DNA of 64,000 bases from an uncultured Acidobacteriota bacterium (GTDB lineage: Bacteria > Acidobacteriota > Vicinamibacteria > Vicinamibacterales > UBA2999): assembly GCA_963731785.1 (NCBI GenBank), contig CAVSWX010000021.1, positions 1,893 through 65,892 on the forward strand. The letters run 5' to 3'. The position numbers were made by a program, and so were the translations under genes. The notes under the pieces are model-generated. The model did not search any database. It saw nothing but the letters and a program-made list of their open reading frames with translations, and was not told where the DNA came from. Of the stretch, positions 57,752 to 61,793 are shown piece after piece (the first letter of the stretch is position 1; each line of letters opens with the position of its first letter).

Positions 57752-60232
57752 ATGGCGAACTCGTGGCGTGTGTTCAAGTTCGGGGGATCCAGCGTCGCCG
57801 ACGCGGCCTCCATGCGGCGGGTGGCCGACATCATCGAGGGGGAGCCGGCCGGGCCGCTCGCCGTCGTGTTGTCGGCGTGCAAGGGCGTCACCGACGGCCT
57901 GCTCGACCTGGTGTCGGCGGCGGAGCGCCAGGAGCCGGCGGGCGCCGGTCCTGGCCGGCCTCCGGCAGCGGCACATTGGCCATCGCCACCGAGATCTGCA
58001 CGCCGGACGATGTCGCCGCGTTCGCGGCCGAGTTCGACGCGGATGCGTCCGACATCGAGCGCCGGCTCCGGGCCGCGTCCGAGGCGAAGTCGGCCACCCA
58101 GGAAACCCGCGACGTCGTCGCCGGCTACGGCGAGTTGTGGTCGACGCGGCATGTTCGCCCGCAGCCTGGGCGCCCGCGGCCGGCGCGGCGCCGGTGCGGT
58201 GGCTCGACGCGCGCGACGTCGTCGAGGTGCAGTGGGGCCCGCTCGGCCCGGCCGTGCAGTGGCCGGTGTCGCGCCAGCGCGCCGCGGCGCTGGTGCCGGA
58301 TGGCTCGCCCGCCACGCTCATCGTGCCCGGCTTCATCGCCCGCACGCCGGAGGGCGTGCAGACGACGCTCGGACGCAACGGCTCGGACTTCTCGGCGTCG
58401 ATCTTCGGCGACGTGCTCAACGCCTCCGAGATTCACATCTGGACCGACGTCGACGGCGTGCTCAGCGCCGATCCCCGGCGCGTGCCCGACGCCACCGTCA
58501 TCGACTCGCTGTCGTACCACGAGGCGATGGAGCTGGCCTACTTCGGCGCCAAGGTGATCCATCCCGCAGACGATGGCCCCGGCGGTGACCAAAGGCATCC
58601 CGATCTGGGTGCGGAACACGTTCGCGCCCGAGAAGCCCGGCACGCTGATCTGCGCCGCGCCCACCTCGAATCACGCGGTGAAGGGCATCACGAGCATCGA
58701 CGCCGTGGCGCTGGTCAACGTGGAAGGCGCGGGGATGATCGGCGTGCCCGGCACCGCGCAGCGGCTGTTCGGCGCGCTGCGTGAGGACGGGATCTCCGTC
58801 ATCCTGATCTCGCAGGGCAGCTCCGAGCACTCGATCTGCTTCGCGGTGCCGGAAAAGGACGCCGAGCGCACCGCCGCAGACCGTGCGCCGCGCCTTTGCC
58901 GTGGAGCTGCGCGACGGCCAGATTCAGGACGTCGATGCGCTGACCGGCCACAGCATCCTCAGCGTCGTCGGCGACGGCATGGCCGGCACGCCCGGCATCG
59001 CCGCCGACGTGTTCGGCGCGCTCGCCGGCGCCGGCGTCAACGTCCGCGCCATCGCGCAGGGCTCCTCCGAGCGCAACATCTCGGTGGTGATCGATGCGCG
59101 CCAGACCACGCGCGCGCTGCGGTCGGTGCACGCGCGCTTCTACCTGTCGCCCCACACGATCTCGATCGGCCTGGTCGGGCCCGGGCGTGGTGGGCAGCGT
59201 GCTGCTCGAGCAGATCGCCTCGCAGGCGCCGCGGCTGCTGCGCGATTTCCGGCTCGACCTGCGCGTGCGCGCCCTGATGACGTCGAAGAAGATGCTGCTG
59301 TCCGATCAGTCGATCGGCATCGACGGCTGGAGGGACAAGCTGACGGCCGGGGCAGCCGGTGGACCTCGAGCGGTTCGAGGACCACGTGCACGCCGATCAC
59401 CTGCCGCACGCCGTCATCATCGACTGCTCGGCGAGCGAGAACGGTGGCGGCGCTCTATCCGCGCTGGCTGGCCGAGGGCATTCACGTGGTCACGCCGAAC
59501 AAGCGCGCCAACAGCGGCGCGCTCGACCTGTTCGCGCGCGTGCACGAGGCGCGCCGGGCCGGCGGGTCGCACTATCTCTACGAGGCGACGGTCGGCGCCG
59601 GGCTGCCGATCATGCAGACGCTGCGCGACCTGCGCGAGACCGGCGACGAGATCCGCAAGGTCGAAGGCATCTTCTCCGGCACGCTGGCCTATCTCTTCAA
59701 CGTGTGGGACGGCAGCGAGCCGTTCTCGTCGATCGTCAAGACCGCCAAGGCCAAGGGCTACACCGAGCCGGACCCGCGCGACGACCTCTCGGGCACCGAC
59801 GTGGCGCGCAAGCTGGTGATCCTGGCGCGCGAGATGGGCATGCGGCTCGAGCTCGCGGACGTGGCGCTCGAGGGGCTGATCCCGCCGGCGCTCGTCGGCG
59901 TCGGCGTCGAGGAGTTCATGGCGCGGCTCACCGAGCTCGACGCGCCGATGCTGGCCAAGCTCGAAGCCGCGCGCGGCCGCAACCACGTGCTGCGCTACGT
60001 CGGCGCGCTCGACGCCGCGAGCAACCGGGCCACGGTGGGCCTGGTGGAGCTGGAACGGTCGCACCCGTTCGCCAACATCAACCTCACCGACAACGTGGTG
60101 CGCTTCGTGACCTCGCGCTACGACCAGAACCCGCTCGTCGTGCAGGGCCCCGGCGCCGGCCCGGCCGTCACCGCCGGCGGCGTCTTCGCCGACCTGCTGC
60201 GCGTCTGCTCGTACTTGGGCGCAAAAATCTAA
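57752..60232 (+). CDS. thrA: bifunctional aspartate kinase / homoserine dehydrogenase I (at least 8 apparent frameshifts)
   Basis: [28 protein letters not shown]...[17 protein letters not shown]; ...[31 protein letters not shown]...[43 protein letters not shown]; ...[19 protein letters not shown]...[16 protein letters not shown] (ACT); ...[17 protein letters not shown]; ...[12 protein letters not shown]...[39 protein letters not shown]...[30 protein letters not shown]...[31 protein letters not shown]. Confidence 0.88.
60184..60232. repeat. direct repeat copy 1 (the authentic last 16 codons + stop of thrA)
   Basis: CTTCGCCGACCTGCTGCGCGTCTGCTCGTACTTGGGCGCAAAAATCTAA is repeated at 61746-61793 with 46 of 49 positions identical. 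Confidence 0.9.
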
Positions 60233-60283
60233 ACGACGGAAAAGACGTCGCGCGCCGATCGCGGCGCGAGACGCCCGAGGAAT

Positions 60284-60957
60284 CTAGAAGCGGTAGCCGA
60301 TGCCCGCCGTGACCTGCGAGAAATCCAGCTTGCTGGACATCTCGTAGGCGCTGCGATAGCGGTAGCCGATGTCGAAGTGGGTGCGGCCGGAACCGATGCC
60401 CACGCCGAACGCGGCCTCGACCATGGGGCCCGTGTTGCCTTCACTGGCGAGGGAGAGGTCCGATTCGCCGAGACCGAAGTCGTTGAAGACGGCTCGCGTC
60501 ACATCACCAAGGCGCGCTTCGACGACCGTGCGCTTGAGATTGATGACGCCGGCCCCGCCCACCCACATACGGGCGGATGGAGCCGCTGCCGAACACGTAC
60601 TTGCCGCCCACCACGAAGGCTCACGCCACGGTCGCGGCCGCTGAGCGACCAGGTGTCGCCGGTAAGGTTGGTCAACCTGTTCGCCTGGTCTTCGAGACCG
60701 TCGCGCAGCGACTGCCCCATCAGGTTCTCGAAGTAGGAGAACGTGGCGTAGGCCTGGGCATGGCGACCGAGGTGCTCGGCGATCTCCACGCCGAAGACGG
60801 GCTCGGTGGGCGGACGCGACACCGCGCCGCCGATCGCGGCGATGTACCAGCGCGGCTCCGCCGTGGTGCCGGGAGCCGGGGCCCCCTGCGCGAAGGCGGA
60901 GACGGACGAGACGATGGCCAGAACGAATGCTGCCGAGATCGAGTGACGCGCGTTCAT
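60284..60957 (-). CDS. outer-membrane beta-barrel protein (OmpA-beta/OmpW/opacity-like small barrel) (one apparent frameshift near 60590)
   Basis: ORF 60499..60957: MNARHSISAAFVLAIVSSVSAFAQGAP...RWYIAAIGGAV...AYATFSYFENL... It joins ORF 60284..60568: ...VGGAGVINLKRTVVEA...VEAAFGVGIGSGRTHFDIGYRYRSAYEMSSKLDFSQVTAGIGYRF* (aromatic C-terminus). Confidence 0.6.
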
Positions 60958-60975
60958 CGCATTGGCTCCTGAAAA

Positions 60976-61593
60976 CTAGCGGCGGGTCAAGCTTTGGAAC
61001 GAGTGGTTCGCGACCAGCGCGCCCAACGGTCCGTCTTCGTCGGAGACGTTGTAGGTGTGTGCCGCGATGCCGGTGATGGATGTGGGATTGATGGGATCGT
61101 CGAACCTCGCGGTCACGCTCGAGCCCACCAGGTCAAGCTCGTGAGTGTCTGCCGTCTCGGGCAAAGGAAGGTCAGAGGCTTCTCCGTGCACTGTTCCGCA
61201 TGCAGCACGAAGCTGTTGCCGGAACCGATGCGGCCCTTGTATTCGCACGCCAGGCCGGTCGTCGATGACACGAGCTTGGCCGTCAGATCACTGCCCGACT
61301 GCGTAATCAACAGCGTGTGGTCGTTCCTCTCGCCAATCACCTTGTCGAACGCCGCTCCCGCGCACGCGGACGCACCCGCCTTGAGCGCGGGGCCAGTGCC
61401 ACCCGCCACGCCGGTCAACGTCAATCTCGCCGCCCCAGTTTCCGCTCAGTCGTGGCAACAGCAGATCCGACAGCGACGAAGGGCCCGTGGGGGTGGCCGG
61501 GGTGGCCGGGGTCCCGTTGACACTATCCCCGCAGGAGGCCGTCGCCAGTCGCCGAGGCGAAGAGGCCCGCGAACAACGCGGCTCGTGAATTCA
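60976..61593 (-). CDS. putative lipoprotein, unknown function (apparent frameshifts)
   Basis: AGGAG RBS + ATG 61591-61593. My own translation gives MNSRAALFAGLFASAT / LATASCGDSVNGTPATPATPTGPSS (lipobox-like TASC after a 1-nt shift). Then ORF 61113..61424 (...LTLTGVAGGTGPALKAGASACAGAAFDKVIGERNDHTLLITQSGSDLTAKLVSSTTGLACEYKGRIGSGNSFVLHAEQCTEKPLTFLCP). Then ORF 60976..61248 (...DLVGSSVTARFDDPINPTSITGIAAHTYNVSDEDGPLGALVANHSFQSLTRR*). Confidence 0.45.
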
Positions 61594-61745
61594 TCTGACA
61601 AAACTCCTTGTGCACGTACGGTGCGCCGTGCGGTTGCCCATGAGGCTGCAAGTTCCATGCACAGCCTTTTGCACGCGATAGCGCGTGAAGTGCACCGCGC
61701 CATCTGCCCCCTCACAGACATGAATCTGCTTCCAGGTAGATAAGC

Positions 61746-61793
61746 CTTCGCCGACCTGCGCGCGTCTGCTCGTACTTGGGCGCAAAGATCTGA
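61746..61793. repeat. direct repeat copy 2 (orphan duplicate of the thrA 3' end, including a stop codon)
   Basis: CTTCGCCGACCTGCGCGCGTCTGCTCGTACTTGGGCGCAAAGATCTGA still encodes [10 protein letters not shown]. Differences from copy 1 are a 1-nt deletion, AAA->AAG and TAA->TGA. Confidence 0.9.

What the first reader, a model, noticed from the sequence alone, without database searches (positions are those of the whole stretch)
60184..61793. The thrA 3' end is duplicated 1.5 kb downstream, bracketing a two-gene insertion (att-like scar without an integrase)
The last 49 nt of thrA, including the stop (60184-60232), recur at 61746-61793 with 46/49 identity. The differences are a 1-nt deletion, AAA->AAG and TAA->TGA, and the copy still encodes [10 protein letters not shown]. 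The 1513 bp between the copies carries two minus-strand genes, a small OM beta-barrel and a putative lipoprotein, each with its own RBS. Duplication of a gene's 3' end is the classic signature of site-specific integration that reconstitutes the target gene (attL/attR). No integrase or excisionase is present, so this would be a decayed islet or a cassette inserted by another mechanism.
Basis: seen in the sequence. Interest (0 to 1): 0.6.

Follow-up and report, generated by a model that had tools for sequence, protein, structure and literature searches.

The report
Orphaned thrA tail at recombination hotspot
A 49-base copy of the end of the threonine-pathway gene thrA really does lie 1.5 kb downstream, but it is a leftover from ordinary DNA reshuffling in a fast-changing stretch of a soil Acidobacteria genome, not the scar of a mobile element that brought in the two genes between the copies.

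Summary
The repeat is real: 60184-60232 and 61746-61793 agree at 46 of 49 positions, there are only two copies in the genome, and none is expected by chance. An independently assembled relative that is 96% identical (L072) has the same order, thrA, barrel, lipoprotein, thrA-tail relic, TonB receptor. The junction is therefore not an assembly artefact.

The att-scar reading fails on several counts:
- The two "inserted" genes are an old lipoprotein/beta-barrel operon with a strongly conserved 150-nt upstream region.
- This module occurs in at least ten Vicinamibacterales lineages. Three same-genus lineages carry it next to thrA without any repeat.
- No integrase lies on the contig, no empty site was found, no other genome has a second thrA tail, and base composition is normal.
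- Homology to every relative except L072, which shares the arrangement, stops at 61746. That point is the edge of the operon's regulatory region, and the start of a hypervariable segment running from thrA towards a PQQ dehydrogenase.

Copy 2 keeps the genus-typical ending AAGATCTGA. The live gene carries a derived ending, AAAAATCTAA.

My best reading (about 0.55) is an orphaned thrA 3' tail. It was probably left by illegitimate or homology-facilitated recombination ("3'-end displacement") in a recombination hotspot, and may later have been refreshed by short ectopic conversion. This is ordinary biology and of low interest.

The parts
57753..60232 (+). thrA, the bifunctional aspartokinase / homoserine dehydrogenase. 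It is broken here into several frames by 1-nt insertion errors.
   Evidence: Pfam AA_kinase, ACT, NAD_binding_3 and Homoserine_dh. It is an intact 823 aa in the 96%-identical contig L072 and 770+ aa in G003. Nine G000-only 1-nt insertions fall within the gene.
60184..60232 (+). Copy 1: the last 16 codons of the live thrA gene plus its stop codon. It ends GCA AAA ATC TAA.
   Evidence: The same derived ending is present in L072. Relatives G001, G002, G003 and G017 end AAG ATC TGA.
60241..60283 (.). GC-rich hairpin (GACGTCGCGCGCC..GGCGCGAGAC) between the convergent thrA and barrel genes. It travels with the operon module.
   Evidence: Homology of L060 and L070, where the module is not next to thrA, reaches 60241-60246.
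60284..60957 (-). Small outer-membrane beta-barrel gene of about 223 aa, split here by two 1-nt insertions near 60560 and 60620.
   Evidence: ORFs. Pfam OMP_b-brl, weak. Intact orthologues in G002, G003, L059-L070 and L072. Insertion sites.
60976..61594 (-). Lipoprotein-like gene of about 202 aa (signal peptide, then ...TTSC|G), broken here by 1-nt insertions.
   Evidence: about 120 homologues in metagenomes, no Pfam family. Insertion sites.
61595..61746 (-). Strongly conserved 150-nt upstream region of the operon. It contains the palindrome CAGATTCATATCTG, the motif CGCGCTATCGCG and the invariant GGCTGTGCATGGAACTTGCAG. Its outer edge is the breakpoint J.
   Evidence: Alignment of 11 lineages. 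No Rfam hit and no covariation. Homology of every relative except L072, which shares the arrangement, ends at 61745-61748; in L061 a further 17 GC-rich nt align, probably by chance.
61746..61793 (+). Copy 2: an orphaned thrA tail. It has a 1-nt deletion and ends GCA AAG ATC TGA. Weak similarity to a thrA 3' flank may run on to about 61810.
   Evidence: In L072 the 3' half is kept as ACTTGGGCGC(C)GAAGATCTGA, while the 5' 24 nt are replaced by an unrelated 20 nt.
61794..61859 (.). Spacer of 66 nt with no detectable relative, apart from L072 (about 94% identical).
61860..64000 (+). TonB-dependent receptor gene. The ATG is at 61877, the protein is 720 aa, and the gene runs off the window. It behaves as a gene-sized mosaic unit.
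   Evidence: Pfam Plug and TonB_dep_Rec_b-barrel. Nucleotide identity is about 99% to L072, 94% to the G001-like contig L042 (homology starts at 61860), and 85% to G055 and others (starting at the ATG). Neighbours differ in every lineage.

Best explanation
Copy 2 is an orphaned 3' tail of a thrA allele. It sits in the roughly 110-nt spacer between two separately conserved units: the lipoprotein/beta-barrel operon with its 150-nt regulatory region (ending at 61746), and a TonB-receptor gene unit (starting at 61860).

The stretch downstream of thrA, as far as a PQQ-dehydrogenase block, is a hypervariable recombination hotspot in this Vicinamibacterales clade.

The tail was most likely separated from the live gene by illegitimate or homology-facilitated recombination. 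In that scenario, DNA anchored by homology in thrA and carrying a thrA 3' part with the AAAAATCTAA ending was joined non-homologously, shifting the resident tail (AAGATCTGA) downstream. This is '3'-end displacement' as described for Rhs and T6SS loci. The equivalent alternative is that a segment carrying a thrA tail was brought in next to the operon and then trimmed by deletion.

No site-specific recombinase is involved, and the two genes between the copies are old residents rather than cargo.

The relic is inherited, since it predates the split of G000 and L072. The near-perfect 5' 40 nt seen only in G000 either survived there or were re-copied from the live gene by a short ectopic conversion, ending at the CTTC microhomology at the operon edge.

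Shown: the repeat, its uniqueness, the shared breakpoint, the age and spread of the operon, the absence of an integrase, and the independent contig. Inferred: the recombination mechanism and its direction.
For: - The repeat is real and unique.
- An independent contig, L072, is collinear with 57471-64000 at 96.4%. It has thrA, barrel, lipoprotein, relic, spacer and TonB in the same order.
- Copy 2 and the L072 relic carry the genus-typical ending ...AAGATCTGA. Apart from one extra C, the L072 relic is identical to the thrA tail of the metagenome contig 93% identical to G003. The live gene in both G000 and L072 ends AAAAATCTAA.
- The operon with its 150-nt leader is a discrete module in at least 10 lineages. 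Homology to the window always stops at 61745-61748, and the right-hand neighbours are all different: PEP-CTERM protein, Ser/Thr kinase, tannase-like protein, DUF6152, PQQ dehydrogenase, TIR proteins, MFS transporter.
- The clade order thrA-(0-3 genes)-operon-(0-7.5 kb variable)-PQQ dehydrogenase is seen in G003, L061 and L065.
- Third-codon-position distance in thrA between G000 and its congeners is 0.29-0.34. A neutral 48-nt relic as old as the genus should carry about 7 substitutions, but copy 2 has none against the genus consensus. The operon next to thrA is shared with G002 and G003.
- The G000-L072 mismatch density changes from about 3% (thrA) to 10% (lipoprotein gene) to 1% (TonB). This shows gene-scale recombination here.
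- There is a published precedent for 3' ends shifted downstream by homology-facilitated illegitimate recombination: PMC5361080.
Against: - The donor and the direction of the event cannot be identified. There is no recombination breakpoint signal inside thrA.
- No genome with thrA directly followed by this TonB receptor was found.
- Homology-facilitated illegitimate recombination is rare where it has been measured (PMC5361080), and competence is unknown for this uncultured lineage.
- The exact abutment of copy 2 on the operon edge needs either trimming by selection-bounded deletion or the conversion sub-step.
- Only two genomes carry the relic, so which of the two states is ancestral is unresolved.
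Confidence: 0.55

Rival explanations
1. The two-gene module entered the 3' end of thrA by site-specific (attP x attB) or Campbell-type integration of a circle carrying a thrA-tail mimic. That would leave attL (copy 1) and attR (copy 2). The recombinase has since been lost or acts in trans, making this a CIME-like decayed islet.
For: - Direct repeats exactly bracket the module (60241-61746) in G000.
- The distribution of differences fits a crossover inside the identical 27-32 nt core. The copy at the gene carries a 'new' ending, and the distal copy carries the ancestral ending.
- The module has sharp ends and occurs in different contexts in other lineages.
- Another integrase-less islet flanked by a duplicated tRNA-Cys 3' end exists in this genome.
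Against: - No integrase, excisionase or transposase lies between the copies or anywhere on contig C21. PF00589 hits occur only on C8, C16, C17 and C19.
- G002, G003 and two metagenome contigs have the module next to thrA without a second tail.
- None of 8 other module contexts has flanking direct repeats.
- Only G000 has two thrA tails among the genomes the pattern could reach.
- The module's divergence follows that of core genes, and its GC3 is normal.
- No empty site was found.
Confidence: 0.12
2. A purely local copy. During repair or replication in the spacer between the operon edge and TonB, about 40-50 nt were copied from the live thrA tail 1.5 kb away, by template switching or ectopic conversion seeded by a short pre-existing similarity. 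No foreign DNA or displaced gene end would ever have been involved.
For: - The 5' 40 nt of copy 2 equal copy 1 at every base except one missing T. This includes GCA, where the L072 relic has GCG.
- L072 has an unrelated 20 nt in place of the 5' half.
- There is a CTTC microhomology at the left end of the tract.
Against: - The last 8 nt of copy 2 (AAGATCTGA) are not those of copy 1. They agree with the L072 relic and with the thrA genes of other genomes.
- Apart from one extra C, the L072 relic is identical to a thrA tail of the ancestral allele type. That is too good for a chance seed. So a thrA-derived piece was there before any conversion.
Confidence: 0.15
3. An assembly or polishing artefact. 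The noisy long-read contig may be a strain chimera, or reads from the thrA end may have been mis-placed on the relic during polishing, creating or lengthening copy 2 in silico.
For: - The assembly carries many 1-nt insertion errors. Twenty fall between 57943 and 61632 and none between 61750 and 64000. The error regime therefore changes within about 120 nt of copy 2.
- The 5' half of copy 2 is not confirmed by L072.
- Reads could not be inspected.
Against: - L072, a different contig from a different sample and 3.6% divergent, has the same junction, the 3' half of the relic and the spacer.
- Copy 2 differs from copy 1 by a deletion and two substitutions, which mis-placed reads would not produce.
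- Genome-wide there is only one other short high-identity direct repeat within 20 kb, and it is a biologically sensible tRNA-Cys duplication.
- The change in error rate coincides with a change to 99% identity with L072. That pattern is expected if co-occurring strains share the TonB unit and so raise its coverage.
Confidence: 0.08

Closest known systems
3'-end (C-terminal) displacement by homology-facilitated illegitimate recombination, as proposed for Rhs, CDI and T6SS effector loci (PMC5361080; de Vries & Wackernagel 2002, and Prudhomme et al. 2002, as cited there)
   Same: An orphaned 3' fragment of a conserved gene lies downstream of the DNA that now follows the live gene. One side of the event leaves no scar. 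The other side is a non-homologous junction with at most a few nucleotides of microhomology. No recombinase gene is involved, and the locus is a hotspot whose content differs between close relatives.
   Different: The gene here is a housekeeping biosynthetic gene with no polymorphic toxin tip. Only one short relic exists, not an array. The DNA between the copies is an old resident operon rather than a recognisably new module. Neither the donor nor competence is known.
Genomic islets flanked by att repeats that lack recombination genes (CIMEs and decayed integrative elements at gene 3' ends; reviews PMC5704250 and PMC7563491 were found but not read in detail)
   Same: The direct repeat consists of the 3' end of a target gene, the gene is kept intact, and there is no integrase inside.
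   Different: No cognate integrative element or integrase for this site is known or found. Relatives carry the same 'cargo' at the same place without repeats. There is no empty site and no recurrence.
Integration or recombination hotspots between conserved flanking genes (from general knowledge of bacterial pangenome studies; no paper was read here)
   Same: The left flank (thrA plus operon) and the right flank (PQQ-dehydrogenase block) are conserved. The content between them differs in every lineage and includes TIR-domain genes. Mobile-element genes are absent.
   Different: The hotspot edge is unusually sharp, falling on the same nucleotide in at least 10 lineages. The reason is that it coincides with the edge of a strongly conserved regulatory region.

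Membership tests
Site-specific integrative element (attL/attR island, CIME) | Direct repeats that include the 3' end of the target gene and flank the element | tested here: met
   The copies agree at 46 of 49 positions at 60184-60232 and 61746-61793. This holds in G000 only. In L072 only about 20 nt are kept.
Site-specific integrative element (attL/attR island, CIME) | An integrase or recombinase inside or next to the element, or a known cognate one in the genome | tested here: not met
   No such domain was found in the ORFs between the copies or through to the end of contig C21. PF00589 hits occur only on C8, C16, C17 and C19, with no link to thrA. Serine recombinases were not searched genome-wide.
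Site-specific integrative element (attL/attR island, CIME) | Presence/absence polymorphism with an empty attB site in relatives | tested here: not met
   G002, G003 and two metagenome contigs have thrA followed by the operon with no repeat. G001 has a different gene after thrA. No relative has thrA directly followed by the TonB receptor.
Site-specific integrative element (attL/attR island, CIME) | The same attachment site is used repeatedly in other genomes | tested here: not met
   A pattern scan of 194 family genomes found the thrA tail in 9 of them, and only G000 has two copies. No flanking repeats occur around the module in 8 other contexts.
Homology-facilitated illegitimate recombination / 3'-end displacement | An orphaned 3' fragment of the anchor gene lies downstream of the newly adjacent DNA, and its allele differs from that of the live gene | tested here: met
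   Copy 2 and the L072 relic end AAGATCTGA, while the live gene ends AAAAATCTAA.
Homology-facilitated illegitimate recombination / 3'-end displacement | A non-homologous junction with short microhomology | tested here: met
   At the junction ...GATAAGCC|TTCGCC only C/CTT(C) is shared with the thrA sequence GTC|TTCGCC.
Homology-facilitated illegitimate recombination / 3'-end displacement | The incoming segment is identifiable as donor-derived (a mosaic breakpoint in the anchor gene) | tested here: inconclusive
   Sliding-window identity across thrA shows no switch, and G000 is roughly equidistant from G001-G003. Identity to L072 is mosaic at gene scale.
Homology-facilitated illegitimate recombination / 3'-end displacement | Uptake of linear DNA (natural transformation or an equivalent route) in the organism | not testable with these tools
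   This is an uncultured MAG lineage.
Integron gene cassette (attC / attI) | An IntI integrase, and attC imperfect palindromes at the 3' ends of cassettes next to the junction | tested here: not met
   No integrase was found. In G003 the neighbouring gene stops 26 nt from the junction, which leaves no room for an attC. No covarying hairpin was found.

The most novel reading that the evidence does not exclude
The lipoprotein/beta-barrel operon together with its invariant 150-nt end could be a discrete, integrase-independent mobile cassette. Alternatively, the 150-nt element could be a recombination site used by a host enzyme in trans. Such a cassette would insert at gene 3' ends, and the thrA repeat in G000 would be its long target duplication. 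This would explain why at least 10 lineages break at exactly the same nucleotide.
Probability: 0.06. Interest if true: 0.6.

Novelty: new member of a known kind. Interest (0 to 1): 0.22.

Why it matters
The finding mainly matters as a caution. A duplicated gene 3' end is not on its own evidence of site-specific integration. Here, comparison with relatives shows that the 'cargo' is older than the repeat.

It also documents a fast-turnover hotspot downstream of thrA in soil Vicinamibacterales, with gene-sized mosaic units (a TonB receptor and TIR-domain genes).

Finally, it reveals a very strongly conserved 150-nt regulatory region in front of a widespread lipoprotein/barrel operon of unknown function. 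That region is the more promising object for follow-up.

Tried and rejected
- **Degenerate thrA relic after the junction in G002, G003 or the metagenome contig 93% identical to G003.** Local alignment scores were at the level of random genome segments (p = 0.05-0.95).
- **An 8-nt 'target duplication' CAGGTAGA on both sides of the G000-specific 110 nt.** Rejected, because homology among lineages continues 6-7 nt beyond the first copy.
- **Integron cassette or attC reading of the junction.** No integrase, no room for an attC, and no covarying hairpin.
- **Sigma-54 promoter or a structured RNA in the 150-nt leader.** The spacing does not fit by eye, there is no Rfam hit, and the covariation term is about 0. 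GGAACTT resembles an ECF-type -35 element, but this is inference only.
- **Recombination breakpoint inside thrA.** None is visible.
- **Foreign composition of 60233-61745 or of the TonB gene.** GC and GC3 lie within the genome's normal range.
- **Origin of the 66-nt spacer and of the 20-nt patch in L072.** No match anywhere.
- **Exact look-up of the TonB protein.** Nothing on record. The single metagenome scan returned only G002-like and G003-like contigs.
- **Notes from other genomes.** Nothing relevant.
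Full report
**Setting.** The window is G000:C21:1893-65892, from a 5.97-Mb, 31-contig MAG. A same-genus genome is titled Vicinamibacterales bacterium. CheckM completeness is only 56%, because many genes are broken. Every G000-specific indel against relatives in 57.9-61.6 kb is a 1-nt insertion. The frameshifts in thrA and in the two small genes are therefore sequencing noise.

**The observation.** The sequence and the repeat finder confirm the finding. 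Positions 60184-60232 (the last 16 codons of thrA plus TAA) recur at 61746-61793, with one missing T, AAA to AAG, and TAA to TGA. The 27-nt core occurs twice in the window, against 0.00 expected. It occurs twice in the whole genome. thrA is the bifunctional aspartokinase/homoserine dehydrogenase. Between the copies lie a beta-barrel gene of about 223 aa and a lipoprotein-like gene of about 202 aa, both on the minus strand.

**Is the two-gene stretch an insertion?**
- Same-genus G002 and G003 carry thrA, barrel and lipoprotein at 86-87% nucleotide identity. So do two metagenome contigs, one 93% identical to G003 and one 99.9% identical to G002.
- In all of them, homology to the window stops at 61747/8, which is the first base of copy 2. 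G002 and G003 also diverge from each other there.
- None of them has a second thrA tail, and no degenerate relic is detectable after the junction.
- The lipoprotein has about 120 homologues in metagenomes.
- In every context I fetched, DNA homology to the window covers the barrel gene, the lipoprotein gene and about 150 nt upstream, and it ends at 61745-61747. These contexts are L059 (92%), L060 (89%), L065 (83%), L070 (80%), L064 (78%), L061 (76%) and L063 (70%). In L061 the alignment runs on 17 nt further, to 61764, through GC-rich sequence that is probably a chance match.
- The neighbours beyond that point all differ: PEP-CTERM protein, Ser/Thr kinase, tannase-like protein, DUF6152, PQQ dehydrogenase, TIR proteins and MFS transporter.
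- The 150-nt region is more conserved than the coding sequence. It has no Rfam match and no covariation. It is most simply a promoter/operator region, whose outer edge defines the shared breakpoint.
- In G003, L061 and L065 the order is thrA-(0-3 genes)-operon-(0-7.5 kb variable)-PQQ dehydrogenase. In G000 the PQQ block lies on contig C5, 10.8 kb from the contig end, in the orientation expected if C21 continues into C5.
- Module divergence tracks core-gene divergence with the same rank order, and GC3 is ordinary.

The operon is therefore an old resident next to thrA, not recent cargo.

**Tests of the att model.**
- No integrase, excisionase or transposase domain lies between the copies or through to the end of C21. 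PF00589 hits lie on four other contigs.
- Among 194 family genomes, the thrA-tail pattern matched 9, and only G000 has two copies.
- The module has no flanking direct repeats in eight other contexts.
- No relative has thrA directly followed by the TonB receptor. Orthologues of the receptor sit in unrelated neighbourhoods: 94% in a G001-like contig, behind a TIR/DUF4062 gene, and 85-87% in other genera.
- G001, one of the three same-genus relatives (91% nucleotide identity in thrA), has yet another gene after thrA.

**Age and polarity.**
- Copy 2 ends AAGATCTGA, as do the thrA genes of G001, G002, G003 and G017. The live gene ends AAAAATCTAA.
- Third-position distance in thrA between G000 and its congeners is 0.29-0.34. 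A neutral 48-nt relic as old as the shared thrA-operon adjacency should therefore carry about 7 substitutions. Copy 2 carries none against the genus consensus.
- Copy 2 thus left a functional thrA later than the operon came to lie beside thrA.

**Independent assembly.** The TonB protein cluster contains a member that is 99.4% identical, on ENA contig ERZ25039469:contig_34201.
- That contig (L072) aligns collinearly with 57471-64000 at 96.4%. It has an intact 823-aa thrA, then barrel, lipoprotein and TonB.
- Its thrA also ends AAAAATCTAA.
- Downstream of the same junction...GATAAGCC TTC, it has an unrelated 20 nt (AGCCACGGAGAGTCACGCGG). This is followed by ACTTGGGCGC(C)GAAGATCTGA and the same spacer.
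- The junction and a thrA-derived tail are therefore real and predate the G000/L072 split. Apart from one extra C, that tail is identical to the thrA tail of the metagenome contig 93% identical to G003.
- The 5' 24 nt of copy 2 are specific to G000.
- Mismatch density between the two contigs is about 3% in thrA, 10% in the lipoprotein gene and 1% in TonB, and they diverge completely after the TonB stop. This is gene-scale mosaic recombination.
- G000's insertion errors stop at 61632, where identity to L072 rises. That is what extra coverage from co-occurring strains sharing the TonB unit would give.

**Interpretation.** The best-supported reading is an orphaned thrA tail at the edge of a recombination hotspot.
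- It was probably produced by an illegitimate or homology-facilitated event that shifted a resident gene end downstream. The same logic has been proposed for orphan 3' ends at Rhs and T6SS loci (PMC5361080).
- Later deletion, bounded by the operon's regulatory edge, may then have trimmed it.
- In G000 a short ectopic conversion from the live gene may have refreshed the 5' part. All substitutions between the copies lie in the last 8 nt, and a CTTC microhomology marks the left end.
- The direction of the event and the donor are inferred, not shown.
- Rivals are att-type integration (0.12), a purely local templated copy (0.15) and an artefact (0.08).

**Verdict.** The feature is an ordinary footprint of genome plasticity.

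Noticed in passing
window 61595-61746 (minus strand): The roughly 150-nt region upstream of the lipoprotein/barrel operon is more conserved than the genes themselves across 11 lineages, including ones where the protein is only about 50-70% identical to G003's. Its motifs are the palindrome CAGATTCATATCTG, CGCGCTATCGCG, the invariant GGCTGTGCATGGAACTTGCAG (GGAACTT resembles an ECF-type -35 element) and GCACCGTGCG. There is no Rfam hit and no covariation, so it is probably a promoter/operator region for an operon of unknown function.
   Followed up: partly
G000 contig C23:374-419 and 6878-6923 (locus L048): This is the only other short high-identity direct repeat within 20 kb in the genome. The 3' 45 nt of tRNA-Cys are duplicated 6.5 kb away. 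The repeats bracket genes for a PQQ dehydrogenase, a cytochrome c and an FAD oxidoreductase, plus an IS3-like HTH_21 fragment. No tyrosine integrase is present. It looks like a genuine decayed tRNA-targeting islet.
   Followed up: partly
window 61860-64000 and onward to C21:65934: The TonB-dependent receptor behaves as a gene-sized mosaic unit. Nucleotide identity is about 99% to L072, 94% to a G001-like contig and 85% to other genera. Homology starts 0-17 nt before the start codon and ends at the stop codon, and both neighbours differ in each lineage.
   Followed up: partly
window 57943-61632 versus 61750-64000: Compared with L072, G000 has twenty extra single bases in the first stretch and none in the second. 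The frameshift density along C21 is patchy, at 0-8 per 4 kb. The assembly's error rate appears to follow how widely a segment is shared among co-occurring strains.
   Followed up: partly
window 57406-57577 (upstream of thrA): A stretch of about 170 nt upstream of thrA is conserved in G002 (85%). It occurs twice in the thrA neighbourhood of G017 (72% and 71%). It may be a leader or a repeated regulatory element rather than a gene remnant.
   Followed up: no
loci L042 (1-777), L070 (253-4444), G000 C5:556742-557992: TIR-domain genes recur among the variable genes of this hotspot in several lineages. One carries DUF4062 and one carries a patatin domain. This suggests the hotspot collects defence-type genes.
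   Followed up: no
window 61000-61500: The lipoprotein gene differs by about 10% between G000 and L072, with in-frame 12-nt and 6-nt indels. The adjacent barrel gene and thrA differ by only 2-3%. Allelic replacement inside the operon is the likely cause.
   Followed up: no
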